Program-made: the position numbers and the translations under genes
Notes under the pieces: model-generated
Database searches by the model: none
What the model was told of the DNA's origin: nothing
The model's input: the letters and a program-made list of their open reading frames with translations, nothing else
In this document: in pieces, positions 5,326 through 39,757 of the stretch
How positions within the stretch are numbered: position 1 is the first letter of the stretch
How the letters are laid out: every line of letters starts with the position of its first letter
Assembly (NCBI GenBank): GCA_963766795.1
Contig: CAVYBN010000012.1
Location: forward strand, 220 to 64,219
Direction: 5' to 3'
Source of the DNA: Candidatus Parcubacteria bacterium
GTDB taxonomy: Bacteria > Patescibacteriota > Minisyncoccia > Phycocordibacterales > PALSA-1337
DNA: 64,000 nucleotides

Positions 5326-5413
5326 TTGTCACCCCCGCGGAAGCGGGGGTCCAGTGTATTACCACTGGCATTGTCGGTGAAACCCTGGATTCCCGCTTTC
5401 GCGGGAATGACAA
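5326..5413 (+). repeat. 88-bp two-hairpin MITE-like element, copy 1 (TTGTCA...TGACAA termini)
   Basis: TTGTCA-CCCCCGC-GGAA-GCGGGGG-TCCAGTGT...CCCTGG-ATTCCCGC-TTTC-GCGGGAAT-GACAA. The two ends are imperfect inverted repeats of each other. It lies in the leader of virB4. Confidence 0.85.
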
Positions 5414-5428
5414 TATTTTGGAATTTGT

Positions 5429-6073
5429 TCATGTTATTTGAATCGGTTTCTCAGTTTCCCCCGGATTAAACAGCTTATAAAACAATTCTACCACCTCCTC
5501 CGTGCCCAGCTCGGCGGTCCTGATGCCGCAGCGCACGAGTCCCTGTTCGACCACGGCCACGCGCTGTTCCAATTGGCTCCGATGCTCCTGGAAGAGCTCG
5601 TCGGGAGTAGCCTTGGCACCGTCAGTCCCCTTCTTCCCGCCGGGCAGAGCAGCGGCCAGGCGGCTCTTCGAGCCGGCAGCGATCGCCGGATCATAGGGTA
5701 TGATCACGAAGAAGCTCTTGGACATGATGTTGGTGGATTCCACGAAAGTCTTGATGAAGTCTATGTATTCACGGACTTGGATCTTCATGAGCTCGATCGT
5801 CTGTTCCTTGTAGCGGTCTTCCAGAAGGGCGATGTAAGGCCGGATGTCGAGCTTCTTGGACTGCATGAATATCTGGATGGAGAAATCTAGCGAGTTCAGG
5901 AAGTTCTGGAATTGCATCAGGATGGCACCCTGCTCGTCTGCCGACTTAAGCGCGAAGTTGAGCGAAGTCGCCAAGACGATGGAGCGCATGCCGCCGCTCT
6001 TCAGTATGACCACGCCGTCGCGGATCTCCTGGATGGGAACGAAGTTCTGGGTTGTTTGCTGTTTAGTAGCCAT
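5429..6073 (-). CDS. hypothetical protein of the T4SS-like cluster; N-terminal region resembles the pre-ATPase domain of Firmicutes VirB4-like proteins, no NTP-binding motif
   Basis: ATG at 6073 (MATKQQTTQNFVPIQEIRDGVVILKSGG...SLNFALKS..EQ). The 40 extra residues in the track ORF (SFPRKRESRV...WIPVFTGMT) are read-through of MITE copy 2. The functional call rests on by-eye pattern only. Confidence 0.55.
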   Translation of the reverse strand: MATKQQTTQNFVPIQEIRDGVVILKSGGMRSIVLATSLNFALKSADEQGAILMQFQNFLNSLDFSIQIFMQSKKLDIRPYIALLEDRYKEQTIELMKIQVREYIDFIKTFVESTNIMSKSFFVIIPYDPAIAAGSKSRLAAALPGGKKGTDGAKATPDELFQEHRSQLEQRVAVVEQGLVRCGIRTAELGTEEVVELFYKLFNPGETEKPIQIT

Positions 6074-6102
6074 TGGATGTAATTCAAAAGGCAAAATTAT
6101 CC

Positions 6103-6190
6103 TTGTCATCCCCGTGAAAACGGGGATCCAGTGTATTACCACTGGCGTTGTCGGTGAAACCCTGGATTCCCGCTTTCGCGGGAATGACAA
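6103..6190 (+). repeat. 88-bp two-hairpin MITE-like element, copy 2
   Basis: Same architecture and length as copy 1. The left hairpin is ATCCCCG-TGAAAA-CGGGGAT, with compensatory changes relative to copy 1. The flanking 20 bp AATTCAAAAGGCAAAATTAT (6081-6100) is also shared with 5301-5320. Confidence 0.85.
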
Positions 6191-6247
6191 CATTTTGACT
6201 TTTAACTTTCAATTTTGACTTTTGCATTTTGACTTTTAACTTTTGAC

Positions 6248-6688
6248 TTATTTTTGGTCCTTATTCGAATAGATACTTTCTTTGATATCGAGGCTCCAGC
6301 TCAAATCTTTCAGCTTGCTGTTCGATATCTTCGGAACCATGATGCCGGCATATCCCTTGGCGTCTTTGACGGCGGCTTCGATCGTGGTAGGACGCGGCTT
6401 CTCCTCTTTCTTCCAGATGAAGAGCTTGCCGCCGGTGTAATATTTGAAGGCGGATTCGAGGATGTCGATGAGCGGCCGGCCGAGAGTTCGTGACGGGTAG
6501 AAAGCTAGAGTGGCGGAAATGGCCATGACAATGATGATGGGCAGGAACGCGAGGGTCAGGCTTTTCAGGAGGACATATAAAAGGAATGACAATCCGGCGC
6601 CGCCGGCCATGTAGATGAATTGCTTCAGGGTCATGGGCCCGAATATCTTGTCCTCGACCTCGATGAACTGGGGGACTTGGAAGCGCAT
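6248..6688 (-). CDS. PrgI/VirB3-like small T4SS membrane protein
   Basis: MRFQVPQFIEVEDKIFGPMTLKQFIYMAGG is followed by two TM helices, which from memory is the PrgI-family signature. It lies upstream of the VirB4-type genes, as in Gram-positive T4SS loci. Confidence 0.65.
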   Translation of the reverse strand: MRFQVPQFIEVEDKIFGPMTLKQFIYMAGGAGLSFLLYVLLKSLTLAFLPIIIVMAISATLAFYPSRTLGRPLIDILESAFKYYTGGKLFIWKKEEKPRPTTIEAAVKDAKGYAGIMVPKISNSKLKDLSWSLDIKESIYSNKDQK

Positions 6689-6704
6689 TGAGATAAGTAT
6701 ATCA

Positions 6705-9569: not shown

Positions 9570-9572
9570 GAT

Positions 9573-11381: not shown

Positions 11382-11391
11382 TGTCAGTATG

Positions 11392-13578: not shown

Positions 13579-14057
13579 AAAACTTCTTATCCATCATAGC
13601 TATAATACTTATGACTTTCATTTCCTTGCCTTTTCGCGCTCTCGCATTCGGCGCGACATTCGACGGCGGCGAGCTTCAAGGCATGGACACCATGTGCACA
13701 TGTTCCGGCGGTGAGACCATCGATATCCAAAGCTATGTCGACAATAGTCAGCATACATATCTGTATGAGCTTGGAGCATCGACGCTGTACGCGAATTACG
13801 ATATCATGTCATCGAACGGTTATTTCTTAGCCACACTTACGCCGATGGCGATGTGTTTGGTATACGAAGGCGAGGATTGCGATCAGGAGGGCCAGACTCC
13901 GGAAGGAATGTTCAATTTGGTCGGCACTTCCTTCAACGACAGTAGGAACAGCCTCATGGCGCTTCTAGAGAAGTTTCCGATGGTTTCTAATATCACCGAG
14001 GCTTTCTCAAAGTCGATTTCTCTGTCTTCTTGGAATCGTTCAGATTCTCAGATTTGA
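13575..14057 (+). CDS. small secreted Cys-containing hypothetical protein
   Basis: 160-aa ORF with an ATGA overlap to the upstream gene and signal peptide MKNFLSIIAIILMTFISLPFRALA. Confidence 0.45.
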   Translation: MKNFLSIIAIILMTFISLPFRALAFGATFDGGELQGMDTMCTCSGGETIDIQSYVDNSQHTYLYELGASTLYANYDIMSSNGYFLATLTPMAMCLVYEGEDCDQEGQTPEGMFNLVGTSFNDSRNSLMALLEKFPMVSNITEAFSKSISLSSWNRSDSQI

Positions 14058-15089
14058 AACGATCTCAAACCACTTCCCCAGTTCAACCTCCTCCGCCCGC
14101 GCTTTTTCATTTAAATTCAAGTCAAACCAGACCTTTTCAAGTCTCTCCTTGGCGGTTATTCCATTGGCGATTCCTTTGGTAATCGCTTCTTTGCCAACGA
14201 CTGCCTCCAGATTCCTGATCAAAAGCTTCCTCTTATGAGCGAATCCGGCTTTGACGATCTCAAAAAACCTAGGTATTTCAACGCCTTTCTCCTTAAATCG
14301 TTTATCGGAAATGTTTTCGATTGAAAGTATGGCCGAATCAACCGTTGGCGGCGGCGTGAATGCTCCGCGCGGAACGCGGGCGATGATCTTCGGCGTGCCA
14401 AAAGCTTTGACGGAAATGGAGAGGATGCTCTCTTTGCCAGACAGAGGTCGGACCTCCGCCCGGATGACCCCGAGGTCCGACCTCTGTGTTCTAGTACCGA
14501 TGATCCGTTCAGCGACTTCTTTTTGTACCAATAGAACCATTCTATTTGGCCGTGGTTCATGCTCAAGAAATGATTCGAGAATGGCGCCGGTGATGTAGTA
14601 AGGGATATTGGAGACGATCGCGTACGAGGAATTGGAGATTGAAAATTGAAAAGCCTTGTCATTCCCGTGAAAACGGGAATCCAGTGTATCACTGCTTTCG
14701 ATTTCAGTAGTCTGACCCTGGATCCCCGCTTGCGCGGGGATGACAACAGGATTCGCGGGGATGACAGGCGGTTTACAATCGTTGGCAATCAATCGGCTGA
14801 TTGAATACGATTCTCGATCGAGAATGTCGCCTTCGACGAGCGTTAATCGGCTAGCGTTCAATTCACTGGCGAATCTTTCTTTTAATAGTTCGATCGCCCG
14901 CGAATCTTTTTCGATCGCTATGACATTCGCGCCAGCTTCAAGCAGAGCTTTCGTCAAAACGCCCGTGCCCGGCCCTATTTCAAGGACATTTTCACCGATT
15001 TGAATGTGCGCGCTCTCGATGATCTGCTTCAAGACCACCGGTGAATTCAGGAAATGCTGTCCGAGGGATTTTTTTGGTTTTAAGTTCAT
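14040..15089 (-). CDS. rsmA: 16S rRNA (adenine1518/1519-N6)-dimethyltransferase RsmA/KsgA carrying two in-frame repeat insertions
   Basis: LGQHFLNSPVVLKQIIE...VLEIGPGTGVLTKALLE...SNIPYYITG. I prefer the ATG at 15089 (MNLKPKK). The protein is longer than usual because of the inserts at 14441-14487 and 14631-14768. Confidence 0.85.
   Translation of the reverse strand: MNLKPKKSLGQHFLNSPVVLKQIIESAHIQIGENVLEIGPGTGVLTKALLEAGANVIAIEKDSRAIELLKERFASELNASRLTLVEGDILDRESYSISRLIANDCKPPVIPANPVVIPAQAGIQGQTTEIESSDTLDSRFHGNDKAFQFSISNSSYAIVSNIPYYITGAILESFLEHEPRPNRMVLLVQKEVAERIIGTRTQRSDLGVIRAEVRPLSGKESILSISVKAFGTPKIIARVPRGAFTPPPTVDSAILSIENISDKRFKEKGVEIPRFFEIVKAGFAHKRKLLIRNLEAVVGKEAITKGIANGITAKERLEKVWFDLNLNEKARAEEVELGKWFEIVSNLRI
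14441..14487. repeat. perfect 16-bp-stem hairpin element (ACAGAGGTCGGACCTC / GAGGTCCGACCTCTGT) inside rsmA
   Basis: Arms at 14441-14456 and 14472-14487 are exact reverse complements. The GAGGTC(C/G)GACCTC core recurs at 28269-28285 (intergenic) and 53496-53510 (inside rsmE). Confidence 0.8.
14656..14768 (+). repeat. MITE-like element copy 3 with a partially duplicated right hairpin, inside the rsmA reading frame
   Basis: TTGTCA-ATTCCCG-TGAAAA-CGGGAAT-CCAGTGT...CCCTGGATCCCCGCTTGCGCGGGGATGACAA plus an extra CAGGATTCGCGGGGATGACAGG. It is translated in frame as PVIPANPVVIPAQAGIQ...LDSRFHGNDK. Confidence 0.85.
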
Positions 15090-16208: not shown

Positions 16209-16329
16209 GAACGGCCGATCCGATCTCTTTTAGTTTGTTATTTTGCATAGTAACTTACTCATACTGGTCAGAATATGTCTTTTTTGACCAGTACGACTAG
16301 TATACTGGTCACAATGGGAATAAGTCAAG

Positions 16330-18383
16330 TCAAAAATCTATGAACACCGCCTTCGCCCCGGTCGGTTTTTGCGGCGCGGATTCCTCGATGAGCGACGCGT
16401 CTATGTCATCTATGAATTCTGACATGGTGTTCACGCGCTCTGTTCCGTAGACCGTGCGGATGAGAGCGAATGGCTTAAATGGACTTTCTTGCGCGCGCGG
16501 GTCAGAGCGACGTAGAACAATCGACGCTCCTCCTCTGCCTCGGCCTGGCTCTGCCCTTCCTCGTCCATGTGCTTGAATGGAAAAAGGTCCTGCTCGAGGC
16601 CGGCGATGAAGACATGGTCGAATTCCAGGCCTTTCGAAGCATGGACGGTCATCAATTTTACGGCGTCATGATTTTCTTTAAGTTCGTCCTGGTCGGTTGC
16701 CAGTGCCGCGTTTTCCAGAAATGACTCTATCCCTTCTTCAGGTTTCAAATGATCATATTGCGCGGCCACGGTCACCAATTCGTGAATGTTCAAAAGCCGT
16801 TCCTCATCCTCGCTGTCGCCTTCTCGCAAGACGCGCTCCATTCCAGTCTCTTGAATGACGAATTTCACTGATTCAGAAGGCTTTTTCTCGAGGATTTCCT
16901 TCTTAATGTCGGCCAATAATTGTCGGAAGCTGGCGATCTTAGTCTTCATGCCGTCCGGCAATTCACTTTCAGAACCAGCCAGGACTTTTGCCACGGTCAC
17001 CTTGCCGATTCCCCGTGGTGGGACATTGATTATGCGCGCAATATCGGCGGCGCCAGTACCGGTGAAGTTGGAACGATTAAGATTGGCGTCGGTGGTAGCA
17101 CCCTGGATTCCCGCCTTCGCGGGAATGACAAGCGACCCTTTGTTTGGTTGCGAATCAGTATTTGAATTAAGTGCCGCTCTGATATACGACAAAACATCTT
17201 TGACCTCCTTCCTTTCGAAGAACTTCACGCCGATCAATTGGTACGGGATATTCTTCTTGATGAAAGCCTCCTCCAAAGCGCGCGATTGGAAATTCGCGCG
17301 ATAGAGGACGGCGACCTCCTTGGCCGGAGTGCCGCCGTCGATGAGATCGCGAGAGATGTCGGCAATGGCGCGCGCTTCGTCGTTCTCGTTGTACGAAGGC
17401 AGAAGCGCGATCTTTTCGCCGGTCGGGTTGTCGGTGCACAAGGTCTTCTTCTTGCGCATGGAATTCTTCTCGATGACGTCGTTGGCCGCGGCCAGGATCG
17501 TTTTGGTTGAGCGGTAGTTGGTCTCAAGCGTGATCACTGCCGCCTCCGGATAATCCTTCTCGAAATGCAAGATATTCTCGATGGTGGCGCCGCGCCAACT
17601 GTAGATATTCTGGTCGGCGTCGCCGACCACGCAAATATTACGATCAGTCCCTGCTAAGTGATTGGCTATCTCGTACTGGATCCGATTTGTATCTTGATAT
17701 TCATCGATGTGAATGTATTTCCAAATGGAATTGTAATGTCCGCGGACATCAGCGATCTTTAACAGTTCGGCCGTCTTGACCAACAAGTCGTCGAAATCCA
17801 AAGCGCCGTCTTTCTTAAGGATCGCGTCATATTTCTCCCAGACATCGGCGATCATCTCTTCCATGAAATCCTTGGCGGCGTCTTTGAAGGCCAGTGCTTG
17901 GACCCCATCGCCTTTAGCTCGCGAGATCTTATTCAAGAATACTCCCGGCTCGTATTTCTTTGGATCAATGTTGACTTGAACCATCGCTTCTTTAACGGCT
18001 CGACGCGAATCGGAGCGGTCATAGATGTTGAAATGTCGGTTCAGGCCGAGCAGGCGCGCGTTCTCGCGGATGATATGGACGCCGAGCGCGTGGAAAGTGC
18101 TCACGAACGGCCGCTCACCCATGGAGACCGGCCGATTCAAGGCCTTGTCTTCCGCGAGCAGCTTGATGACCCGCTCGCGCATCTCGCTTGCCGCCTTATT
18201 CGTGAAAGTTACGGCCAGAATCGAATGCGGCGCGACGCCTTTCTGGACCAAGTTAAGGATCCGGTGGGCGATGACGCGCGTCTTGCCGGAGCCGGCTCCG
18301 GCCACGACGAGGACAGGACCGTCGGTCGTCTCCACCGCGCGCTGTTGCTCGGGATTCAGGTTCATGTCATCGAATACTAGCAT
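16330..18383 (-). CDS. pcrA: ATP-dependent DNA helicase PcrA/UvrD family with in-frame repeat insertion; 3' end frameshifted as assembled
   Basis: LNPEQQRAVETTDGPVLVVAGAGSGKT, DEYQDTN and VHASKGLEF motifs. The C-terminal FALIRTVYGTERVNTMSEFIDDI lies in another frame that ends at 16330. The shift is near 16468-16478. Confidence 0.85.
17098..17131 (+). repeat. half copy (right hairpin) of the MITE-like element inside pcrA
   Basis: CCCTGGATTCCCGCCTTCGCGGGAATGACAA is translated in frame as SLVIPAKAGIQG within a longer helicase insert. Confidence 0.8.
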
Positions 18384-18567
18384 TCTTTTGGCCTTCCACA
18401 GGCTATGCACAGATGCGATTGACAGCTTTTGTACGATTGCTAGGCTTAATGCATAGCTAAACCTATGTGTGAATAAATGGCTCGATAGAGCCTTATTTAT
18501 TAGGTTAGAGATTTCAATGTGAGGGTTGGAGAGGCCACGAAAGTCTTGTCAGACGGCCAGTTCCATT

Positions 18568-30757: not shown

Positions 30758-30776
30758 GGCTTAAATATGCCACAGA

Positions 30777-31334: not shown

Positions 31335-31339
31335 AAAAT

Positions 31340-31513: not shown

Positions 31514-31574
31514 GGCTGAAGTATAGCACGCTTTACAGCTCGCCGCTAAATGCTTTTTTGATTTATGCTAATTG

Positions 31575-31630
31575 TGGCGAATTCGCCATAATTAAAGCTA
31601 CTTAATTTCCAAAGGGGTCGAATTCGACCC
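31575..31630 (-). promoter_or_regulatory. pair of perfect GAATTC-centred palindromes upstream of the 57-aa ORF (candidate operators)
   Basis: TGGCGAATTCGCCA (31575-31588) and GGGTCGAATTCGACCC (31615-31630) share the core CGAATTCG. Confidence 0.35.
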
Positions 31631-31728
31631 ATTTGAGAGTATGGTCATTTACCATAATACCCAGCCAAAAGGCCATCTTTTTAGATTACTATTAATTTAC
31701 TATTAATTTTGCTTAAATTAATAGAAAG

Positions 31729-32909: not shown

Positions 32910-33394
32910 GATTTGATTTTGCCATCCTCGTAAAATACTACCTGAGGCTCATTTAAACGATCAAAACCTATAAATACTCCCAATCTGTATTTATAAGGAC
33001 CGTCATGTCTAGTGAATTCAATTAATTTTGCATTATCACACTCGTTAACAGAATTTGATTTATTAGGTTTTATCTCAAATATGACTAGATTACAATCAGT
33101 ATTACGACGATGGATATTAATATCCGGGTAAACATATTCTTGATGCTCGCCTCTGCATTCTCGCGGCAAGATTTTTGTTAAAATCCCATGTTTATTATAT
33201 TCACAATCTACATGCCAACCTGGAAATTGCCGTTGAAGATACTCTGCTAGTTTATGGGCTATAGATCTTTCGTGTACGGATTTTTCTAACAAAAAGGCGT
33301 CATCTTTATACAACAAATCAAGAGCAATGCATATATTCCTTTTAATCTCCGCATCACTGATCTCGCCAAGTTTTTTTGTTTGCCATGCGGTCAT
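32906..33394 (-). CDS. PD-(D/E)xK nuclease-like protein whose first 11 codons duplicate the hsdS start
   Basis: The candidate PD...E-x-K motif is YPDINIHRR...NLVIFEIK. The N-terminus MTAWQTKKLGE parallels hsdS MITNWQTKKLGD. The 20-nt CCAAGTTTTTTTGTTTGCCA is identical at 33366-33385 and 32878-32897. Its stop overlaps the hsdS ATG (ATGA). Confidence 0.5.
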   Translation of the reverse strand: MTAWQTKKLGEISDAEIKRNICIALDLLYKDDAFLLEKSVHERSIAHKLAEYLQRQFPGWHVDCEYNKHGILTKILPRECRGEHQEYVYPDINIHRRNTDCNLVIFEIKPNKSNSVNECDNAKLIEFTRHDGPYKYRLGVFIGFDRLNEPQVVFYEDGKIKS

Positions 33395-33395
33395 A

Positions 33396-33866
33396 TCATT
33401 TCTTTAAATACTGATGCCTTGCGTCATTATATTCTCTGACTACTATATCGTAGAATTTTTTGAAATCTTTATCTTGAATTGCAGAATTAAAATCACCGTT
33501 CATAAGATCTTGAAATCTCTGATTCGTATCGCTACCATATGCCCACTGTAAAAATTTCACGCAAGCTTCATGTAATTGATCGTCTGCTAAATAAATGCTT
33601 TCCTTAATGATGTTCTCAATTTGAGATAATATTCTTGTAGGCAAATCAGAATGTAAGTCTGCATAGTCGCCATCTTCTGATCTGGCCCAGGCATCTGTAG
33701 AAATTTCGTCTAAATGTAAGATAATATACAAAGGAAGTAGGAGATTAGTCAGTCTTTGCTTCAATAAACCTTTTGACGCCTTCTTGTGTGTTTGATATTC
33801 AAAATAAGCGATGTTACCGATTACTCCAAGAACAGCGACTGTAATTATAGATACTAGATTAGACAT
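33396..33866 (-). CDS. N-terminally membrane-anchored helical protein of unknown function
   Basis: 156-aa AT-rich ORF with TM segment LVSIITVAVLGVIGNIAYF. There is a 1-nt gap to the next gene. Confidence 0.45.
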   Translation of the reverse strand: MSNLVSIITVAVLGVIGNIAYFEYQTHKKASKGLLKQRLTNLLLPLYIILHLDEISTDAWARSEDGDYADLHSDLPTRILSQIENIIKESIYLADDQLHEACVKFLQWAYGSDTNQRFQDLMNGDFNSAIQDKDFKKFYDIVVREYNDARHQYLKK

Positions 33867-33892
33867 AAAGTTTTTTGTTTGCTATAGCATAA

Positions 33893-34687
33893 TCAGGTAT
33901 TTTGAGTATATAGATATTGCATATATGAAAACCAATCTCGTGCATGCACTTTCAATCTTTCCAAATCTTTAGGAGTTATGGGATTATTGTGGGCGATAAC
34001 ATTTCTTGTAGGGCCTAGTTCTTCAAGTTTACCGATTAAATTCTTTTGTGCCCCCTTTTTAAACAGTTTGCAAAATTCTTTGTCAAAAACACGAATAATT
34101 GATACTAGCTCCAAATAATCCGTATAGTAGATTTCATGGGCGCCTCTCTTTGAATGGTACCAGTTATCAGAGTCGCTTGCTTTTCTGGAGTCAACTTTAC
34201 GTACCGTTTCTTTTAATGATTTTTTATTCCTAACCTCCAGCCACCAGTTACCGCCGTAAACGCCCAGAAGTATTTTTGTGATGAAAGTGCGTATAGAATT
34301 TTCAAGAACAAACATAATTGAATATCCTTCTGAAGGAATATTTTTGTATACTGAGCCTCCTAAAAATGGATCAGAAAAATCATTTTTAGGAATCTGTACC
34401 GGATGAATGACTTTCCTGCTGGTTTTTGATTCGCCGATAATTTTATCTTTAGATTGACTATTTAATTCTAAACTCAGTTGAGCTTGTTGATTAGGATTAA
34501 GCCCGCGCATAAAAGTGGCCGTGCCGATTTTATACTTATCTGCAGTAATGATCAAAGCAACCTCAGGTGAAATCTTTTTCCTAAAAGCGAAAGCACTGAT
34601 ACTTTTCACAACTAACTTTGAAGATTTGCCTGTTTTGTCAGCAATTTTTTTTACCAATTTCTTGCTGTAGATCAAAGGTCTGCCCAT
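33893..34687 (-). CDS. HEPN-domain protein (Swt1/Abi-like) candidate RNase
   Basis: The C-terminal half shows ENSIRTFI...GGNWW...YTDYLELVSIIRVF...LEELGPTRNVIAHNN. The R-x4-H motif and spacing resemble Swt1-like and Abi HEPN families as I recall them. Confidence 0.6.
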   Translation of the reverse strand: MGRPLIYSKKLVKKIADKTGKSSKLVVKSISAFAFRKKISPEVALIITADKYKIGTATFMRGLNPNQQAQLSLELNSQSKDKIIGESKTSRKVIHPVQIPKNDFSDPFLGGSVYKNIPSEGYSIMFVLENSIRTFITKILLGVYGGNWWLEVRNKKSLKETVRKVDSRKASDSDNWYHSKRGAHEIYYTDYLELVSIIRVFDKEFCKLFKKGAQKNLIGKLEELGPTRNVIAHNNPITPKDLERLKVHARDWFSYMQYLYTQNT

Positions 34688-34698
34688 GTTATTTCTTG

Positions 34699-34860
34699 TT
34701 ACTTCTTCTTTATCTGTTTTGACGGCACCATTCTTGAGATAGTCGCCTTGTCAACGCCCAAAACCAGAGCAATGTCCGTACCTTGCATGCCCTTATTTAT
34801 CAAACTAAGCACCAATAACTTTTTGATGTCTTCAAGTGTTTGAATAGCTTTTTTGTCCAT
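34699..34860 (-). CDS. mini-HTH protein (53 aa), third tandem paralog
   Basis: Found by hand: MDKKAIQTLEDIKKLLVLSLINKGMQGTDIALVLGVDKATISRMVPSKQIKKK. It shares the hydrophobic helix plus HTH layout with the two upstream ORFs. Confidence 0.4.
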   Translation of the reverse strand: MDKKAIQTLEDIKKLLVLSLINKGMQGTDIALVLGVDKATISRMVPSKQIKKK

Positions 34861-34864
34861 AAAG

Positions 34865-35092
34865 TTATTTATCTTTATTTAGCTTATTTTTTTTGATAAG
34901 ACTTTTTGCCACATTTACATAATTAGTCGAAGTATTGAGAATCTCGGCAATTTCAGTAGGAGTTAAACCAAAACGGTCAAGCATTTTTATATTATCAGTA
35001 GCTGTTGCTTTACGGTCCATCGAAAGGAGGTTTAAAGCAATCAGCACTCCCAATTTTTTTGACATAGATTCAAGCAATTTATTTGTATCCAT
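34865..35092 (-). CDS. mini-HTH protein (75 aa), tandem paralog
   Basis: LGVLIALNLLS...IKMLDRFGLTPTEIAEILNTSTNYVNVAKSLIKK aligns by eye with the 72-aa neighbour. Confidence 0.5.
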   Translation of the reverse strand: MDTNKLLESMSKKLGVLIALNLLSMDRKATATDNIKMLDRFGLTPTEIAEILNTSTNYVNVAKSLIKKNKLNKDK

Positions 35093-35094
35093 AA

Positions 35095-35313
35095 TTATTT
35101 TTCCTTACGAATTGCGACTAATTCTTTGCTCACATGACCAGAGGATTTGCCGACAATTTTTGCAATCTCCACGGGTCTAACATTTAGTCCGTCTAATAAT
35201 CTTATTTGGTCCTTAAGTGACAATCCTGCTATATCTTTTGGCACAAGCTTAAGCAATATCGCTATTACGATATCTAGTTTCTGCCCCAATATTTCTTTAC
35301 CCTGTTCGTTCAT
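35095..35313 (-). CDS. mini-HTH protein (72 aa), tandem paralog
   Basis: LDIVIAILLKLV...IRLLDGLNVRPVEIAKIVGKSSGHVSKELVAIRK. It is the first gene after the cassette promoter. Confidence 0.5.
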   Translation of the reverse strand: MNEQGKEILGQKLDIVIAILLKLVPKDIAGLSLKDQIRLLDGLNVRPVEIAKIVGKSSGHVSKELVAIRKEK

Positions 35314-35347
35314 AAAGAATATAAGTAGTTAAATTAGTAATAAATCA

Positions 35348-35375
35348 AGTATATACCTTACAAAATATATGTCAA
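35348..35375 (-). promoter_or_regulatory. candidate sigma70-type promoter of the nested cassette (TTGACA-16-TATACT)
   Basis: Read on the minus strand: -35 at 35375-35370 and -10 at 35353-35348, about 35 nt upstream of the 72-aa ORF ATG. Confidence 0.4.
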
Positions 35376-35473
35376 ATAGTATGCACTAAACTACCCAGAT
35401 ACAGTATAAAGTAATTCCTTTGTCAACAAAGGCTAAAATGTAATATTTAGTTAACTGTCTTTATTAGTAAAAG

Positions 35474-36925
35474 TTAGACAAGATCTTTAATTTTACTCAA
35501 CATCTTTTCGCTCTCCCCATCCAACCTCCTCATCTCCTCCAAAATCTCCTTGGGTTCGCGCAAAACAACTTCCCCGCCTTTGTTCGGATTCTTCACTGAC
35601 AAATCGAAGGTTGTCTGATCCACGTTGGAAACGTCGATGCTCCAAGAATTTTCGGAATCCGCTTTGGTCTTTTGGAGCTTCACGAAATCGGCCAGATCGG
35701 CTTCGCTCAATGGATTGGTCTTGCCGAGGTTGCGCTTGAGATTCAATTGATAGAACCAGACCTTCTTTGTTGGACTGCCCTTTTCAAAAAACAATACGAC
35801 AGTTTTGACGCCAGCGCCGGCAAATACGCCGCCAGGAAGGTCGAGGACGGTATGCAGATTACAATTCTCAAGGAGCAACTTGCGCAAACTGACCGAGGCA
35901 TTGTCGGTATTCGAGAGAAAGGTATTCTTGATGACGATGCCCGCGCGACCGCCGGTTTTGAGGATCTTTATGAAGTGTTGCAAAAAGAGGAACGCCGTTT
36001 CGCCGGTCTTTATGGGGAAATTCTGCTGGATTTCGCGTCCGATACCGGCGCCGAAAGGCGGATTGGCCAGGATGATATCGTAACGGTCCTTTTCCTGGAT
36101 GTCGTTTATGTTCTGCGCCAGCGTGTTCATGTGCCTGATGTTCGGAGCCTCGATGCCGTGCAGGATCATGTTCATGATGCCGATGATGTATGCCAGAGAT
36201 TTAATCTCTTTCCCGTAGAATGTCTTGTTTTGAAGAGTCTCCATCTGGGCCGAAGACAGCTTGGCTTGGTTTTGAGTGAGAAAATTGTACGATTCAACCA
36301 AAAATCCGGCCGAGCCGCAGGCACCGTCATATATAGTCTCACTGATCTTCGGCGCCACTACCTTCACGATGGTCCTGATGAGCGGCCTGGGAGTGTAATA
36401 TTCCCCGCCGTTCCTGCCGGCATTGCCCATGTTCTTGATCTTGGCTTCGTATAGATGCGAAAGCTCGTGCTTCTCTTCGTACAGCCGGAAGTGCATGCCG
36501 TCCACGATGTTCAAGATCTCGCGCAGTTTATATCCGCTGGAGATCTTATTTTTCAGCTCGCTGAATATCTCTCCTATTTTATATTCGATAGTATCCGGCT
36601 CTTCGGCCTTGAATTTCTTAAGATATGGGAACAGTTTCTGATTCACGAAGTCATTCAGGTCGTCGCCGTCGAGAGCTTTATGATGGTCTATCTTACCGTC
36701 GATTGTCTTCGGCGCTGCCCAAGAATTCCACCGGTATTGCTGGTCCAGAATGTAATCATACTTCTTGCCGGCCAAGGCCGCCTCTGTCTTCTTTGTCTCA
36801 TCCAAATCATCGAGATACTTCAAAAACAAAATCCATGAAGTCTGTTCAACGTAGTCCAGCTCTGTAGCCGAGCCAGAGTCGGTGTGGAGTATCTGGTCTA
36901 TGTTTTTGAATGATTGTTCGAACAT
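35474..36925 (-). CDS. hsdM: type I R-M N6-adenine DNA methyltransferase subunit (HsdM)
   Basis: HsdM N-terminal domain (ELDYVEQTSWILFLKYLDD), EYYTPRPL, DGACGSAGFL and ILANPPFG motifs. I prefer the ATG at 36925 (MFEQSFKNID). The track start at 37006 would overlap the NYN gene. Confidence 0.9.
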   Translation of the reverse strand: MFEQSFKNIDQILHTDSGSATELDYVEQTSWILFLKYLDDLDETKKTEAALAGKKYDYILDQQYRWNSWAAPKTIDGKIDHHKALDGDDLNDFVNQKLFPYLKKFKAEEPDTIEYKIGEIFSELKNKISSGYKLREILNIVDGMHFRLYEEKHELSHLYEAKIKNMGNAGRNGGEYYTPRPLIRTIVKVVAPKISETIYDGACGSAGFLVESYNFLTQNQAKLSSAQMETLQNKTFYGKEIKSLAYIIGIMNMILHGIEAPNIRHMNTLAQNINDIQEKDRYDIILANPPFGAGIGREIQQNFPIKTGETAFLFLQHFIKILKTGGRAGIVIKNTFLSNTDNASVSLRKLLLENCNLHTVLDLPGGVFAGAGVKTVVLFFEKGSPTKKVWFYQLNLKRNLGKTNPLSEADLADFVKLQKTKADSENSWSIDVSNVDQTTFDLSVKNPNKGGEVVLREPKEILEEMRRLDGESEKMLSKIKDLV

Positions 36926-36935
36926 AAAAACTATC

Positions 36936-37454
36936 CTACCTCTTCCCCGCCCGCAATAGATATTTATTCGACGCCTCGTCCAAGTCCATGAAATGGTCGG
37001 TGGCATCGATCAGCTTGGCAGAGGTGGATTTGCCGAAGGAGACCACTTCCACCTGGCAACCTTGATTCATCTGCAGGTATTCCACCAACGGCACGAAGTC
37101 GCCGTCGCCGGTTATGAGAATGACCGCGTCGAGCTTCGGCGACAATTTGACCGCGTCGATCGCCAGCCCCACGTCCCAGTCCGCCTTCTTGGCACCCGAG
37201 CTGAAGATCTGCAGATCCTTGATCTTTGTCTCGATGCCCATCTTGACCAAGGCGTCGAAGAAGGCGCTCTCCTCGCCGGATTCCGTCTTGATGACGTACG
37301 CGATCGCGCGCACCAGCTTCCTGCCGTCGAGCGCGTCTTTGACGATTGCGCCGAAATTGACCTTCGAATGATAGAGATTCTTGCCGCTGTGATACAGATT
37401 CTGCGCGTCTATGAAGATGCCCACGCGCTGCTCCTTATGTTTGATGACTGCCAT
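36936..37454 (-). CDS. NYN/LabA-like domain protein (predicted RNase fold)
   Basis: RVGIFIDAQNLYHS...LVRAIAYV...DWDVGLAIDAV...DAVILITGDGDFVPLVEYL fits the NYN (LabA-like) pattern. Its stop lies 10 nt before the hsdM ATG. Confidence 0.75.
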   Translation of the reverse strand: MAVIKHKEQRVGIFIDAQNLYHSGKNLYHSKVNFGAIVKDALDGRKLVRAIAYVIKTESGEESAFFDALVKMGIETKIKDLQIFSSGAKKADWDVGLAIDAVKLSPKLDAVILITGDGDFVPLVEYLQMNQGCQVEVVSFGKSTSAKLIDATDHFMDLDEASNKYLLRAGKR

Positions 37455-37578: not shown

Positions 37579-37666
37579 TTGTCACCCCCGCGAAAGCGGG
37601 GGTCCAGTGTATTGCAACAGACATAATTGTTAATACACTGGATTCCCGCCTTCGCGGGAATGACAC
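37579..37666 (+). repeat. 88-bp MITE-like element, copy 5, nested inside a larger word-shuffled palindromic spacer (about 37500-37740)
   Basis: TTGTCACCCCCGCGAAAGCGGGGGTCCAGTGTATT...AATACACTGGATTCCCGCCTTCGCGGGAATGACAC, with a central CCAGTGTATT/AATACACTGG inverted repeat. The flanks carry TTAGAAATTAGGT / ACCTAATTTCTAA words in inverted orientation. Confidence 0.85.
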
Positions 37667-37736
37667 GAGTTCTAAATTAAAGATGTTTGGGATTTTATTA
37701 GAAATTAGGTTAATTAGTTCAATTAGAAATTCCCCA

Positions 37737-38003
37737 TTATTTCTTCAATTCGAGCTTCTTGAGTATCGCCGAGTATCGTCTCGGATAGTTCTTCTTCAAG
37801 TACACCAAATGAGTCTGGCGGTTGGCGACCATGCCGAGAAGGCCGCGGCGCGAATGGTTGTCTTTCTTATGCTTCTTCAAATGGCCCGTCAGCTCCTCGA
37901 TCTGGCGGCTCAAAAGAGCGATCTGGACCTCCGGCGAGCCGGTGTCTTTGTCGTGAACGCCCGTTTCCTTGATTATCTTGCTTTTCTGTCTGGCCGTAAG
38001 CAT
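37737..38003 (-). CDS. rpsO: 30S ribosomal protein S15
   Basis: 88 aa, [52 protein letters not shown]. Confidence 0.9.
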
Positions 38004-38055
38004 GTTTTTAGGATTTGATTATAGTAGCATGAATGGGTGGTGAGTGCAATATCGG

Positions 38056-38110
38056 ATAAAAATTTAGGCCGCCAGGGATATTCAGTATTAGCTGAAGTCC
38101 TTGGCGGCCT
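38056..38110 (-). terminator. candidate intrinsic terminator of an unidentified minus-strand transcript upstream of rpsO
   Basis: A 12-bp stem with one mismatch (AGGCCGCCAAGG / CCCTGGCGGCCT on the minus strand), followed by AAATTTTTAT. Confidence 0.35.
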
Positions 38111-38736
38111 GCGGGCGATTTGGCTTGAATCCCGTTCCCGTTGTTTCCGACTTTAAGGTTTGTGCGAGCCCATTAGCCGTTTGCTTTGGCCACTACAGCC
38201 TCATGCAATCCGAGTCCCCTTTTAGGAGGAATGGGGATGTTTCCAATGGATGTACGACGGTATAGTCTCCTTTCAGCCACAATCGCAATGCTGCGGCAGA
38301 TTTCTTCTGGCGAATTTCGGGCGAGTCCATCATTCATTCATTTTCAATTAAACCCGGCATAACAATTTCTTGGATGCCGATCCCAATGGAAGTGGACTCG
38401 CGGGCCGGTGGCGGCGATCATTAGGTCAAATATTTGCCGCGCAGGCCGGGGCCGGAGGCGCCGACGAAGGGGGAATCTTGGCTCTTATTCTTCTGGCCAG
38501 CGAAGGCCACAATGATATTCGAATTCGGGGGGCTTTTGTTCATAATATATGCCTTTCTATCAAGCCGTTTGTTGTTTTAAGCTTGAGTAGTTGGGATGAC
38601 CTCCAAACCTGCGCACACGCGCGATTTTGGTGGAATCGTGATTCAAAGATCATCCCGAAAACATGCTAGCACGCTCGAATTATTTGTCAAGTACAAGAAA
38701 ATATTGCCTATTGCGAGGCTATGCTACAATAAAACC

Positions 38737-39663
38737 ATGTCGCACAATATCAAGGACTTGAAACAGCAATTCCTCGAATACACCGAGATCGAAAAAGGCC
38801 GATCGATCAAGACTGTCATCAATTATGATCATTATCTCACGCGATTCATAACCTTTTCAAAGGTCAAAAACTGTGAAGATATCACGGCTGACAGTATCCG
38901 TAATTATCGCCTGTGGCTCAACCGGCAATCTACTGGCCATGTGCGCAATGGTCCGGAGACTCTGAAGAAGAAGACACAAAACTATCATCTGATCGCTCTG
39001 CGCGCGTTCCTTAAGTACCTCGCCAAGCGCGGGATCAAATCATTATCGCCGGAGCATGTCGAGCTGGCCAAGGTCGGCGAACGGCATATCGATCTAATTT
39101 CAAGCGATGAATTGAAGCGTCTTTTCGATGCGACCAGAGGCGACGATCTCAAATCACTAAGAGATAGAGCCATTTTAGAGCTTTTATTTTCCACTGGCCT
39201 GCGCGTTTCAGAGCTATGCTCGCTGACGCGAGATACCGATTTCAATGCTGAAAGTTTTTCTATCCGCGGCAAGGGAGAGAAGATCCGCGTCGTCTTCATG
39301 TCCGACGAGGCCAGGAAGGCAGTGAAGAATTATCTGGCTAAGCGCGCGGATGTCGAGGACTCTCTGTTTGTCCGCGTTCCCGGCGTTGAAATGAAAGGTT
39401 GGCAGAAACAGCAGGCATTAACGACAAGATCAGTCGAACGCATCATCAAACATTACGCAATCAAAGCTGGCATATCCAAGAAAGTCACGCCGCACGTCAT
39501 TCGCCATTGTTTTGCCACTGACTTGCTCGGCAACGGCGCCGATTTAAGATCAGTCCAAATGCTTCTCGGCCACGCCAACATTTCCACGACTCAAATCTAT
39601 ACGCACGTCACCGACGCTGAACTCAAAAGAGTTCATAAGCAGTTTCATAATCGGAAAAGATGA
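38737..39663 (+). CDS. tyrosine recombinase, XerC/XerD family
   Basis: N-terminal SAM-like domain (FLEYTEIEKGRSIKTVINYDHYL) and a catalytic region with LLFSTGLRVSEL, HVIRHCFAT, LLGHANISTTQIYTH. I prefer the ATG at 38737. Confidence 0.85.
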   Translation: MSHNIKDLKQQFLEYTEIEKGRSIKTVINYDHYLTRFITFSKVKNCEDITADSIRNYRLWLNRQSTGHVRNGPETLKKKTQNYHLIALRAFLKYLAKRGIKSLSPEHVELAKVGERHIDLISSDELKRLFDATRGDDLKSLRDRAILELLFSTGLRVSELCSLTRDTDFNAESFSIRGKGEKIRVVFMSDEARKAVKNYLAKRADVEDSLFVRVPGVEMKGWQKQQALTTRSVERIIKHYAIKAGISKKVTPHVIRHCFATDLLGNGADLRSVQMLLGHANISTTQIYTHVTDAELKRVHKQFHNRKR

Positions 39664-39669
39664 TTTGAT

Positions 39670-39757
39670 TTGTCACCCCCGCGGAAGCGGGGGTCCAGTG
39701 TGATACCGCAAGTGTTATCTGCAATACCCTGGATTCCCGCTTTCGCGGGAATGACAA
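39670..39757 (+). repeat. 88-bp MITE-like element, copy 6
   Basis: TTGTCACCCCCGCGGAAGCGGGGGTCCAGTGTG...CCCTGGATTCCCGCTTTCGCGGGAATGACAA lies between the recombinase gene and xth. Confidence 0.85.

What the first reader, a model, noticed from the sequence alone, without database searches (positions are those of the whole stretch)
5326..39757. 88-bp two-hairpin MITE-like element family, all copies in one orientation, with compensatory stem changes
Full copies of exactly 88 bp lie at 5326, 6103, 37579 and 39670. An extended copy is at 14656-14768 and a half copy at 17098-17131. The architecture is TTGTCA, hairpin 1, TCCAGTGT, a variable core, CCCTGG, hairpin 2 (ATTCCCGC-TTTC-GCGGGAAT) and TGACAA. 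The two ends are imperfect inverted repeats of each other. Hairpin 1 differs between copies by paired substitutions that keep the stem: CCCCCGC/GCGGGGG versus ATCCCCG/CGGGGAT versus ATTCCCG/CGGGAAT. That indicates selection on structure. All six copies have the same orientation on the plus strand, whether the surrounding genes are plus or minus. Their translations (VIPAKAGIQ, LDSRFRGND, SFPRKRESR, WIPAFAGMT) look like strings I recall from spurious hypothetical proteins in several phyla, which I cannot verify here.
Basis: partly seen in the sequence, partly recalled or inferred. Interest (0 to 1): 0.6.

Follow-up and report, generated by a model that had tools for sequence, protein, structure and literature searches.

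The report
Paired Ssn-type hairpin repeats in a Patescibacterium
The 88-bp repeats are real, but they are inverted pairs of an already described 28-nt DNA hairpin (the Neisseria NTS/dRS3 or "Ssn-related motif", target of small GIY-YIG single-strand DNA nucleases), found here in a candidate-phyla-radiation bacterium, where two copies sit in frame inside the essential genes ksgA and uvrD.

Summary
Together they hold 11 hairpin units plus one half-unit fragment in 64 kb.

Each element is two inverted copies of a 28-nt unit, TGTCA-[7-nt stem]-[4-nt loop]-[stem]-TCCAG, around a 24-27-nt spacer.

- The unit matches the published Neisseria NTS at 27 of 28 positions.
- All 11 units fit the published Ssn-related-motif pattern. 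This hairpin is bound and cut as single-stranded DNA by small GIY-YIG nucleases (Chenal et al. 2025).

Stem covariation is real and strong, and it supports two local hairpins rather than one long foldback.

The MITE label fits only partly:
- Inverted ends are present.
- 131 composites show no target-site duplications.
- Spacers are unrelated even where both ends are identical.
- The window holds no transposase, RAYT or GIY-YIG gene.

The same-orientation claim is true but not significant (p about 0.06-0.13).

New points:
- The host is a Patescibacterium.
- Copies lie in frame in loops of KsgA and UvrD, and syntenic relatives differ in whether they carry them.
- SecA, UvrA, UvrB and IleS carry the same kind of insertion elsewhere.

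Verdict: new member of a known kind, of moderate interest.

The parts
5326..5413 (+). Composite copy 1: unit 5327-5354 (+, stem CCCCCGC, loop GGAA), 24-nt core, unit 5385-5412 (-, stem TTCCCGC, loop GAAA). It lies between a TrsD-like gene and a VirB4-like ATPase gene, both on the minus strand.
   Evidence: neighbouring genes
6103..6190 (+). Composite copy 2: unit 6104-6131 (+, stem TCCCCGT, loop GAAA), a core one base different from copy 1, unit 6162-6189 (-). It lies between a PrgI-like gene and the TrsD-like gene. It has a sub-threshold match to Rfam WsnRNA46.
5301..5321 (+). 21-nt flank AATTCAAAAGGCAAAATTATC, shared with 6081-6101. It lies 2-5 nt left of copies 1 and 2 and just upstream of the start codons of two consecutive minus-strand genes. 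It shows that copies 1 and 2 belong to one longer duplication.
   Evidence: sequence
14656..14746 (+). Composite copy 5: unit 14657-14684 (+, TTCCCGT), 27-nt core, unit 14718-14745 (-, TCCCCGC). The minus strand reads it in frame within ksgA/rsmA as VIPAQAGIQGQTTEIESSDTLDSRFHGND.
14747..14768 (-). Partial duplication of the 5' half of a unit (TGTCATCCCCGCGAATCC on the minus strand) next to copy 5. It also lies in frame in ksgA (VIPANP).
17100..17131 (-). Solo unit (17103-17130, stem TTCCCGC, loop GAAG) in frame inside uvrD (VIPAKAGIQ). It is part of a roughly 35-residue insertion that one syntenic relative lacks.
37579..37666 (+). Composite copy 3: unit 37580-37607 (+, CCCCCGC, GAAA), 24-nt core, unit 37638-37665 (-, TTCCCGC, GAAG). 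It lies between rpsO (37737-38003, -) and a NYN-domain gene (36936-37454, -).
39670..39757 (+). Composite copy 4: units 39671-39698 (+) and 39729-39756 (-), both identical to those of copy 1, with an unrelated core. It starts 7 nt after the stop of a XerD-like recombinase gene and lies upstream of an exonuclease III-like gene, both on the plus strand.
14040..15089 (-). Host gene ksgA/rsmA (349 aa, identical to database protein P0001). The element lies in a hypervariable loop between the GDILD strand and the NIPYYIT motif.
16431..18410 (-). Host gene uvrD/pcrA-type helicase carrying the solo unit. Its C-terminus is cut short compared with relatives.

Best explanation
Each 88-bp element is a pair of inverted Ssn-related motifs (SRM). 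The SRM is the 28-nt hairpin first seen as Neisseria dRS3 and later named NTS, with the form HGTCA, 8-bp stem, 4-nt loop, then TCCAG. Here the two motifs are separated by a spacer of conserved length and variable sequence.

Shown by others (PMC11893778): when DNA is single-stranded the motif folds into a hairpin. That hairpin is the specific binding site of small single-domain GIY-YIG nucleases (Ssn), which cut a few nucleotides 5' of the GTCA, on that strand only. They cut neither double-stranded DNA nor RNA.

Shown here:
- The window's units fit this motif.
- The hairpin is the constrained feature.
- The pair has the same ends and the same inverted arrangement as the 'SRM - ssn gene - SRM' cassettes found in other bacteria.
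- A 155-nt intermediate still carries the first 25 codons of such a gene.

Inferred:
- The 88-bp elements are miniature, non-coding relatives of those cassettes, comparable to the smallest Neisseria intergenic mosaic elements.
- They are spread or homogenised by nuclease cutting at the hairpin, followed by repair or recombination that uses other copies as template. This is not cut-and-paste transposition, which would explain the absence of target-site duplications and identical ends around unrelated spacers.
- An Ssn-type gene lies elsewhere in this genome, or did so in the recent past.

The unit is free of stop codons in 5 of 6 frames. Copies that land in surface loops of proteins are therefore tolerated, as in KsgA and UvrD here, in the manner of Rickettsia palindromic elements.
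For: Identity of the unit:
- TGTCATTCCCGCGAAAGCGGGAATCCAG differs from NTS (CGTCATTCCCGCGMAVGCGGGAATCYRG) only at base 1. This is a direct comparison with the pattern quoted.
- All 11 units match the published SRM pattern. The window gives 13 matches against 0.32 in shuffles.
- The GTC before the palindrome and the C after it are the bases reported as critical for cutting and binding. Both are invariant in 138 units.

The hairpin is the constrained feature:
- 98.5% of cells pair, and 4 of 8 pairs show compensatory changes. One pair takes UA, CG, GC and AU.
- On 89 composites the two-local-hairpin model gives 99.6% pairing. The long-foldback model leaves 35-37 of 89 sequences unpaired at the variable positions.

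Link to GIY-YIG genes:
- Among loci fetched only for carrying the motif, 8 encode ~95-aa PF01541 proteins.
- In 3 of them (L045, L015, L142) the gene lies between inverted units. In 5 of the 8, units or composites adjoin the gene; L225, L170 and L073 have none within 600 nt.
- L087 holds a 155-nt pair around a truncated GIY-YIG start.

Mobility or turnover:
- The uvrD insertion is present in the window and in L125/L126 but absent in L124.
- The ksgA composite is present in the window and L124 but absent in L125/L126.

Tolerance in proteins:
- The KsgA insert (residues 105-153) has pLDDT below 50 in an otherwise confident fold.
- SecA, UvrA, UvrB and IleS carry in-frame composites in other contigs. 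So does the annotated ileS of the isolate Sphingopyxis indica MC4.

Module behaviour:
- Copies 1 and 4 share 64 of 64 end bases but only 50% of the core.
- Copies 1 and 2 differ at 6 positions, 5 of them in one hairpin (p=4e-4).
Against: - No GIY-YIG gene lies in the 64-kb window. A profile search of all ORFs of 40 aa or more found none, and Pfam scans of about 60 ORFs found none.
- The rest of the genome could not be reached.
- All Ssn-type genes seen here are in loci of 56-69% G+C. None of the 120 best database homologues is named as a Patescibacterium. An Ssn partner in this lineage is therefore unproven.
- No one has shown that Ssn nucleases move or copy these motifs. The published function is restriction of transforming single-stranded DNA in Neisseria.
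- The published enzyme lost activity when the palindrome sequence was changed with the structure preserved. It is therefore unclear whether the CCCCCGC and TCCCCGT variants would be recognised by one enzyme.
- The conserved 88-bp length with unrelated cores is not explained by any step of this model.
Confidence: 0.6

Rival explanations
1. Orphan relics. The hairpin pairs entered this lineage by horizontal transfer, or are very old. They now persist with no dedicated enzyme and are kept palindromic by ordinary hairpin-templated repair and gene conversion between copies. They have no role beyond being tolerated.
For: - No cognate gene lies in the window.
- No Patescibacterial Ssn was seen among the top homologues.
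- Cores have diverged to near-random similarity.
- The uvrD copy has lost its second hairpin.
- Patescibacterial genomes are small and streamlined (general knowledge).
Against: - The ends are 100% identical between copies whose cores are unrelated. A stem variant that is rare elsewhere (CCCCCGC, 11 of 484 perfect units) occurs three times here. That calls for active homogenisation or recent spread.
- Close relatives differ in presence and absence at two genes.
- The paper reports that 81% of genomes with more than 200 motifs have an Ssn homologue.
Confidence: 0.2
2. Structured RNA. The elements act after transcription, as small RNAs, as stabilisers of the upstream message inside operons, or as terminators. 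On this reading the stem covariation reflects RNA structure.
For: - All four intergenic copies lie between co-directional genes and would be transcribed.
- Copy 2 gives a sub-threshold match to Rfam WsnRNA46, an expressed Wolbachia small RNA built on the same kind of inverted pair (37.9 bits, E=1e-6).
- The Northern probe for Francisella small RNA FtrB contains the motif.
- The folds are very stable (z = -5.7 to -10.8).
Against: - No Rfam family reaches its threshold.
- The scan of 5200-6300 (copies 1 and 2) found no terminator-like or promoter-like site; copies 3-5 were not scanned.
- Copies are read in both directions relative to transcription and also occur inside coding sequence.
- A palindrome gives the same hairpin on either strand, so covariation cannot separate DNA from RNA.
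- Deleting ftrB gave no phenotype.
- The only tested binding partner refuses RNA.
Confidence: 0.1
3. One reading: a miniature inverted-repeat transposable element, or REP/BIME-type repeat, moved in trans by a transposase such as IS200/IS605 TnpA or a REP-associated tyrosine transposase.
For: - The element has inverted ends, small size and many copies, with hairpins at the ends.
- IS200/IS605 relatives also act on single-stranded hairpins and leave no target duplication (established knowledge; also discussed).
Against: - No Y1-transposase or other transposase domain appears in about 60 window ORFs.
- 131 composites show no target-site duplication.
- Cores are unrelated between copies.
- The unit starts with GTCA, not the GTAG typical of RAYT-associated REPs.
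- Where a gene adjoins units in the fetched loci, it is always GIY-YIG.
Confidence: 0.05
4. Recombination sites. The hairpins are targets of a site-specific recombinase. The candidates are the XerD-like enzyme encoded 7 nt upstream of copy 4, or IS110-type enzymes that insert into such repeats, as the Neisseria filamentous prophage does at dRS3.
For: - The XerD-like gene 38596-39663 ends next to copy 4.
- dRS3 is reported as the target of a phage recombinase.
- IS1111 inserts into hairpin repeats in Coxiella.
Against: - Only one of six copies adjoins the recombinase.
- The recombinase scores as a Xer-type enzyme, not an integron integrase (TIGR02249: 127 bits against a cut-off of 265).
- The element ends do not fit attC core sites (GTTRRRY), by inspection.
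- No IS110 gene and no prophage lie in the window.
- This reading explains neither the in-frame copies nor the covariation pattern.
Confidence: 0.05

Closest known systems
NTS / Ssn-related motif (SRM), target of the GIY-YIG single-strand DNA nuclease family Ssn (Chenal et al., Nat Commun 2025, PMC11893778)
   Same: - The 28-nt unit is the same, matching NTS at 27 of 28 positions, and all 11 units fit the SRM pattern.
- The 8-bp stem and 4-nt loop are the same.
- The GTC before the stem and the C after it are invariant.
- It is present in many copies and is found across phyla.
   Different: - The host is a Patescibacterium. The paper's survey used RefSeq reference genomes and names no such host in its main text.
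- No ssn gene lies in the window.
- The paper's main text has no occurrence of 'RPE', 'in-frame', 'intragenic' or 'MITE', so it appears not to describe the regular two-unit 88-bp arrangement or in-frame insertions in genes.
Neisseria dRS3 repeats and Neisseria intergenic mosaic elements (NIMEs)
   Same: - dRS3 (ATTCCC-N8-GGGAAT) is contained in 6 of the 11 units.
- From my own knowledge (not read in a paper here): NIMEs are short segments bounded by inverted dRS3 copies, which is the same architecture.
   Different: - From my own knowledge: NIME inner segments are 50-150 bp and are themselves repeated. Here the spacer is 24-27 nt and unique to each copy.
- Five units carry compensated stem variants that fall outside the strict dRS3 definition.
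- From my own knowledge: NIMEs are intergenic.
Rickettsia palindromic elements (RPE), selfish DNA inside protein-coding genes
   Same: - They are palindromic repeats of about 100 bp, inserted in frame into loops of essential proteins.
- Presence differs between relatives.
- No transposase is known.
- Rickettsia is listed among genomes with more than 300 SRMs.
   Different: - Sequence relatedness to the RPE consensus sequences was not tested here.
- The idea that RPEs contain SRM-type hairpins (peptides such as VIPRLDRGIQ) rests on my memory only.
Rfam RF02625 WsnRNA46 (Wolbachia small RNA 46) and RF02748 FtrB (Francisella small RNA B)
   Same: - The WsnRNA46 consensus is an inverted pair of GTCAT...ATCCAG units. 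Copy 2 aligns to the whole model on both strands.
- The FtrB probe contains GTCATTCCCGCGTAGGCGGGAATC.
   Different: - Scores are far below the gathering thresholds (37.9 against 65.3; about 22 against 66).
- The Wolbachia stems are longer.
- Rfam draws one long foldback. Covariation here favours two local hairpins.
REP/BIME repeats with RAYT transposases, and Coxiella QMITE2
   Same: - They are short G+C-rich hairpins, often in inverted pairs, and lie between genes of operons.
- They lack target duplications (REP).
- They can be landing sites for IS110-family elements.
   Different: - The conserved bases differ (GTAG in those families).
- The associated gene differs (Y1 transposase against GIY-YIG).
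- Full-size QMITE2 has 7-11-nt direct repeats, and none are seen here.

Membership tests
Ssn-related motif (SRM) / NTS | Sequence fits NTS (CGTCATTCCCGCGMAVGCGGGAATCYRG, one mismatch allowed) or the degenerate SRM pattern HGTCWYN(0-2)YYVSBRHN(0-5)WNVSBRGN(0-2)RNCYNB | tested here: met
   All 11 units match the SRM pattern. By direct comparison with the pattern quoted, the six TTCCCGC/TTCCCGT-stem units differ from NTS at 1-3 positions.
Ssn-related motif (SRM) / NTS | Forms a hairpin, with an oriented non-palindromic flank (GTC upstream, C downstream) | tested here: met
   DNA folds. Covariation. G2, T3, C4, A5, T24, C25 and C26 are invariant in 138 units.
Ssn-related motif (SRM) / NTS | Present in many copies, well above chance | tested here: met
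   13 pattern matches in 64 kb against 0.32 in shuffles. That is about 170 units per Mb if the window is typical.
Ssn-related motif (SRM) / NTS | The genome encodes a single-domain GIY-YIG (cd10448) Ssn homologue, often flanked by the motif | tested here: inconclusive
   None in the window. The association was seen in other organisms' loci.
Ssn-related motif (SRM) / NTS | Bound and cut by Ssn as single-stranded DNA, on one strand only | not testable with these tools
   This needs purified enzyme and oligonucleotides.
MITE (miniature inverted-repeat transposable element) | Terminal inverted repeats, small size, no coding capacity, many copies | tested here: met
MITE (miniature inverted-repeat transposable element) | Target-site duplications flanking the element | tested here: not met
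   In 131 composites, direct repeats of 2-8 nt at the borders occur at or below chance for all offsets. The inverted repeat simply extends to YY|GTCA...TGAC|RR.
MITE (miniature inverted-repeat transposable element) | Copies share internal sequence through descent from one master | tested here: not met
   Cores are 41-58% identical except for the copy 1 / copy 2 pair (96%). Ends are 78-100% identical.
MITE (miniature inverted-repeat transposable element) | An autonomous element with the same ends | tested here: inconclusive
   SRM(+) - GIY-YIG gene - SRM(-) cassettes and a 155-nt truncated intermediate exist in other loci. There are none in the window, and GIY-YIG nucleases are not known transposases.
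REP/BIME with RAYT | REP hairpin with a conserved GTAG-type 5' tetranucleotide, and a Y1 transposase (RAYT) gene flanked by REPs | tested here: not met
   Units begin with GTCA. No Y1_Tnp domain appears in about 60 window ORFs. The whole genome was not tested.
Neisseria dRS3 / NIME | ATTCCC-N8-GGGAAT palindromes in inverted pairs bounding a repeated 50-150-bp segment | tested here: inconclusive
   6 of 11 units contain the exact dRS3 pattern, and they do form inverted pairs. The inner segment is only 24-27 nt and is not repeated.
Rickettsia palindromic elements | In-frame insertion into protein-coding genes without destroying them | tested here: met
   KsgA and UvrD reading frames run through the copies. 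The inserts lie in variable loops. The KsgA fold is confident outside the insert.
Rickettsia palindromic elements | Sequence similarity to the RPE-1 to RPE-8 consensus sequences | not tested
Rfam RF02625 WsnRNA46 | Score at or above the gathering threshold of 65.3 bits | tested here: not met
   37.9 and 35.4 bits on the two strands of copy 2. The other copies scored below E=1.
Integron attC site | R''/R' core sites (RYYYAAC ... GTTRRRY), arrays next to an integron integrase | tested here: not met
   The ends are TTGTCA...TGACAA. The adjacent recombinase scores 127 bits on TIGR02249 against a cut-off of 265 and fits Xer-type models better.

The most novel reading that the evidence does not exclude
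Inverted pairs of Ssn-type hairpins may be the non-autonomous form of a pan-bacterial mobile element. That element would have hairpin ends, leave no target duplication and be driven by a small GIY-YIG single-strand nuclease. Such an element would routinely colonise loops of essential proteins (KsgA, UvrD, SecA, UvrA, UvrB, IleS) in phyla as far apart as Patescibacteria and Pseudomonadota. The 'selfish DNA in protein-coding genes' seen in Rickettsia would then be one case of a general process, with an identifiable enzyme. A bolder version is also open: the Patescibacterial copies may be maintained without any Ssn gene, by an unknown route that keeps ends identical and spacing fixed while spacers drift.
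Probability: 0.25. Interest if true: 0.7.

Novelty: new member of a known kind. Interest (0 to 1): 0.4.

Why it matters
The hairpin itself was described and given an enzyme partner in 2025, so the repeat is not a new kind of element. Three aspects are worth keeping.

First, it extends this motif to the candidate phyla radiation. These are tiny genomes, where a density of roughly 170 units per Mb would be a notable load and where natural DNA uptake is thought to be central to the lifestyle. The published role of Ssn and NTS is control of transforming single-stranded DNA.

Second, the same hairpin pairs sit in frame in essential genes in very different bacteria. That ties the old Rickettsia 'selfish DNA in genes' puzzle to a motif with a known nuclease, which makes the puzzle testable.

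Third, there is a practical gain for annotation. The peptides VIPAKAGIQ, LDSRFRGND, SFPRKRESR and WIPAFAGMT mark this element. They explain many spurious small 'hypothetical proteins' and odd insertions in otherwise conserved proteins. At least two Rfam small-RNA families (WsnRNA46, FtrB) appear to be built on the same repeat.

Tried and rejected
- Finding the source genome. Exact look-ups of four window proteins, including the identical KsgA P0001, returned nothing.
- The single genome-collection scan. I spent it on the lineage-specific left unit. It found only three unrelated MAGs: Parerythrobacter, Halieaceae and Gemmatimonadales. A genome-wide census, the orientation relative to replication and the search for an ssn gene in this organism could therefore not be done.
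- GC skew. The window shows no clear switch, so orientation relative to replication is undecidable.
- Looking for a Patescibacterial Ssn. A profile search returned only Pseudomonadota, Acidobacteriota, Desulfobacterota and Actinomycetota names among the top 120. One hit on a 1.2-Mb contig proved proteobacterium-like.
- The peptide search. Only 28 candidates were gathered and 16 weak hits returned, with no taxon names.
- Supplementary tables of the Ssn paper are not held.
- A literature search for the peptide strings found nothing.
- Readings rejected:
  - intrinsic terminator or promoter (copies 1 and 2 only)
  - integron attC site (and inspection)
  - one long foldback as the conserved structure
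  - ORF 37683-38018 as a candidate partner gene, because the real gene there is rpsO on the other strand
  - VirB4 split by copy 1, because the small upstream protein matches the separate TrsD family

Full report
**1. The observation**

The sequence at the reported coordinates is as described.
- Four elements of exactly 88 bp lie at 5326, 6103, 37579 and 39670.
- A longer copy lies at 14656-14768.
- A lone right-hand hairpin lies at 17098-17131.

Searches allowing three mismatches recover 7 right-type and 3 left-type ends, against none in 100 shuffles. A stem-loop scan shows what repeats: a unit TTGTCA / 7-nt stem / 4-nt loop / 7-nt stem / TCCAG(T/G)GT. It is present 11 times. Five times it forms an inverted pair around a 24-27-nt core, and once it stands alone. 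A profile built from the 11 units finds these, one half-unit fragment at 14752-14766, and nothing else in the window. No copy lies beyond 39.8 kb.

**2. What the unit is**

A full-text search for the stem sequence led to Chenal et al. 2025 (PMC11893778).
- They define the 28-nt Neisseria Transformation Sequence, CGTCATTCCCGCGMAVGCGGGAATCYRG. It contains the older dRS3 repeat.
- They also define a degenerate 'Ssn-related motif' (SRM).
- They show that SsnA, a 94-aa single-domain GIY-YIG protein, binds the motif only as single-stranded DNA. It cuts a few nucleotides upstream, on one strand, and does not act on double-stranded DNA or RNA.

The commonest unit in the window, TGTCATTCCCGCGAAAGCGGGAATCCAG, differs from NTS at the first base only. 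All 11 units match the SRM pattern, which gives 13 matches in the window against 0.32 in shuffles. The GTC before the palindrome and the C after it are the bases reported as critical for cutting and binding. Both are invariant in 138 distinct units collected here.

**3. How widespread it is**

- Named records include Azospirillum replicons with full 84-nt pairs, Neisseria gonorrhoeae, Sphingopyxis, Aeromonas, Photobacterium and a Microcystis phage.
- Parerythrobacter, Halieaceae and Gemmatimonadales MAGs also carry it.

The window itself comes from a Patescibacterium.
- Its KsgA is identical to a database protein on a 67-kb contig.
- The named homologues are Candidatus Taylorbacteria, Pacebacteria and 'Patescibacteria group'.
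- The gene content fits, with PrgI, a VirB4-like ATPase and a T4SS pilin.

**4. Structure and covariation**

I took candidates anchored only on the flanks (GTCA ... TCCA), without requiring complementarity. Of 581 candidates, 484 have perfect 7-bp stems, 28 have one mismatch and 69 have three or more. The distribution is cleanly bimodal.

On 138 distinct units:
- 98.5% of cells pair, against 88.7% in shuffles.
- 96 cells change on both sides, against 17.3 in shuffles (0 of 500).
- 4 of 8 pairs show compensatory change, and one pair takes UA, CG, GC and AU.

Because the two units of an element are inverted copies, the whole element can also fold as one long hairpin of similar energy. Counting pairs on 89 composites separates the two models.
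- The two-local-hairpin model gives 99.6% pairing.
- In the long foldback, the variable stem positions fail to pair in 35-37 of 89 sequences.
- All five composites in the window have different left and right stems.

Two cautions apply.
- A palindrome cannot tell DNA from RNA, and the known partner works on DNA.
- Copies 1 and 2 are otherwise almost identical over about 110 nt, yet 5 of their 6 differences fall in the left hairpin: two compensated pairs plus a loop base (p=4e-4). That looks like replacement of a whole hairpin module rather than stepwise compensation.

Loop bases and the outermost flank base are also correlated between the left and right units of a pair. This suggests that the two arms often descend from one unit type.

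**5. Is it a MITE?**

- Inverted ends, small size and copy number fit.
- Target-site duplications do not. In 131 composites, direct repeats of 2-8 nt at the borders occur at or below chance.
- Internal homology fails too. Copies 1 and 4 share all 64 end bases but only 50% of the 24-nt core. All other core comparisons give 41-58%.
- About 60 window ORFs hold no transposase, Y1 transposase or GIY-YIG domain. A GIY-YIG profile finds nothing among all ORFs of 40 aa or more.

In loci fetched only because they carry the motif, 8 encode ~95-aa PF01541 proteins. In three of them (L045, L015, L142) the gene lies between an upstream plus-strand unit and a downstream minus-strand unit, the same arrangement as in the 88-bp element. 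In five of the eight, units or composites adjoin the gene, and three have none within 600 nt. In L087, a 155-nt pair encloses only the first 25 codons of such a gene. This series makes it plausible that the short pairs are miniature relatives of 'motif - ssn - motif' cassettes. It is an inference, and no one has shown that Ssn proteins move DNA.

**6. Copies inside genes**

The copy at 14656-14768 lies in frame in ksgA/rsmA, giving ...VIPANPVVIPAQAGIQGQTTEIESSDTLDSRFHGNDK... The solo unit lies in frame in uvrD, giving ...SLVIPAKAGIQGATT....

Syntenic contigs from relatives differ at both sites.
- L124 has a shorter composite at the same ksgA site but no insertion in uvrD.
- L125 and L126 have the uvrD insertion but none in ksgA.

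In a 16-sequence alignment the insert falls in a hypervariable loop. An AlphaFold model has pLDDT above 90 over the methyltransferase core and below 50 over residues 105-153.

The same kind of in-frame pair occurs in SecA, UvrA, UvrB and IleS (twice) on metagenome contigs. It also occurs in the annotated ileS of the isolate Sphingopyxis indica MC4. By direct translation, the unit has no stop codon in five of six frames. This behaviour matches what is known for Rickettsia palindromic elements. A search of the main text of the Ssn paper finds no occurrence of 'RPE', 'in-frame', 'intragenic' or 'MITE'.

**7. Orientation**

- Orientation is defined only by small asymmetries: TCCAGTGT against TCCAGGGT, and the stem variants.
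- Copies 1 and 2 are one duplication.
- Five of the six copies lie in minus-strand transcription units.
- The binomial p is 0.06-0.13.
- GC skew gives no replication landmark.
- Among in-gene composites elsewhere, both orientations occur.

The claim is not refuted, but this window does not support it.

**8. Other readings**

- No Rfam family reaches its threshold.
- With permissive settings, copy 2 aligns end to end with WsnRNA46, a Wolbachia small RNA whose consensus is an inverted pair of longer GTCAT...ATCCAG units (37.9 bits against 65.3).
- The probe for Francisella FtrB contains the motif.
- Such repeats are therefore transcribed in some bacteria and have been catalogued as small RNAs. 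That does not show an RNA function.
- The scan of 5200-6300, which covers copies 1 and 2, found no terminator-like or promoter-like sites. Copies 3-5 were not scanned.
- The XerD-like recombinase next to copy 4 is not an integron integrase, and the ends are not attC-like.

**9. Verdict**

It should be re-filed, though. These are inverted pairs of the known Ssn-related hairpin, not a new MITE with a Y1 transposase.

What is new is the host phylum, the regular 88-bp pairing with unrelated spacers, and the in-frame copies in ksgA and uvrD that vary between close relatives.

What remains open:
- whether this genome encodes an Ssn nuclease;
- how the ends stay identical while the spacers drift at a fixed length.

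Noticed in passing
window 5301-5321 and 6081-6101: An identical 21-nt stretch (AATTCAAAAGGCAAAATTATC) lies just left of copies 1 and 2. On the minus strand it sits 8-11 nt upstream of the start codons of two consecutive T4SS-like genes. It may be a duplicated 5' leader or ribosome-binding region carried along with the element.
   Followed up: partly
window 6193-6249: A tandem array of about 8 copies of the heptamer TTTTGAC lies immediately right of copy 2, between the PrgI-like and TrsD-like genes.
   Followed up: no
window 14747-14768; L125 about 2945-2965; L102 9648-9768; L111 2195-2305: Truncated copies of the 5' half of a unit (GTCATYCCCGC...) sit directly next to complete units, sometimes several in a row. 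They could be footprints of cutting and repair at the hairpin, or of slippage.
   Followed up: partly
window 15116-16430: Relatives have uvrD directly followed by ksgA. Here a frameshifted AAA_14/DUF4143 ATPase gene lies between them, and UvrD ends early...HSLSSARSTEQSA* against ...HALIRTVYGTERVNTMSEFIDD... in relatives.
   Followed up: partly
window 28461-37006: A type I restriction-modification island has G+C as low as 36.5%. HsdR is split into two ORFs. There are two HsdS fragments, a Swt1-like HEPN protein and HsdM.
   Followed up: no
window 38020-38590: About 550 bp between rpsO and the XerD-like gene hold no convincing ORF and no Rfam match even at E=1. This could be an unrecognised RNA gene or a decayed gene.
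   Followed up: partly
window 57023-59023 and 62490-63838: The H+-pyrophosphatase gene matches only positions 146-443 of its Pfam model, and overlapping ORFs lie around it. NusA also appears split. Together with HsdR and the AAA_14 gene, this contig has several broken genes, from either decay or assembly frameshifts.
   Followed up: no
window 45806-48095: Two AbiEii-type toxin genes lie in opposite orientation close together. A cluster of four tRNA genes lies at 43247-44349.
   Followed up: no
L087 124-278: A 155-nt inverted pair of units encloses a truncated GIY-YIG start (MKTYYVYIMASKVNDTLYIGEGFIR*). It is an apparent intermediate between a full 'motif - ssn - motif' cassette and the short non-coding pairs.
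   Followed up: partly
L225 4796-7906 and L248 1445-4516: IleS of a metagenome contig and of Sphingopyxis indica MC4 carry a composite at the same position (…RHPIYN.LRH.RESG.PE.ASA.P.LDSRFRGND.DWERAL…). L225 has a second one near the C-terminus. This is either an old shared insertion or a hot spot.
   Followed up: partly
Rfam RF02625 and RF02748, against window 6084-6207 and 5308-5432: Two curated small-RNA families (Wolbachia WsnRNA46, Francisella FtrB) seem to be built on copies of this repeat rather than on unique genes.
   Followed up: partly
L247 3025-4706: In a proteobacterium-like 1.2-Mb contig that carries an Ssn-type gene, a Mur ligase C-terminal domain is called as two separate genes with an 87-aa ORF between them. 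I did not check it for an inserted element.
   Followed up: no
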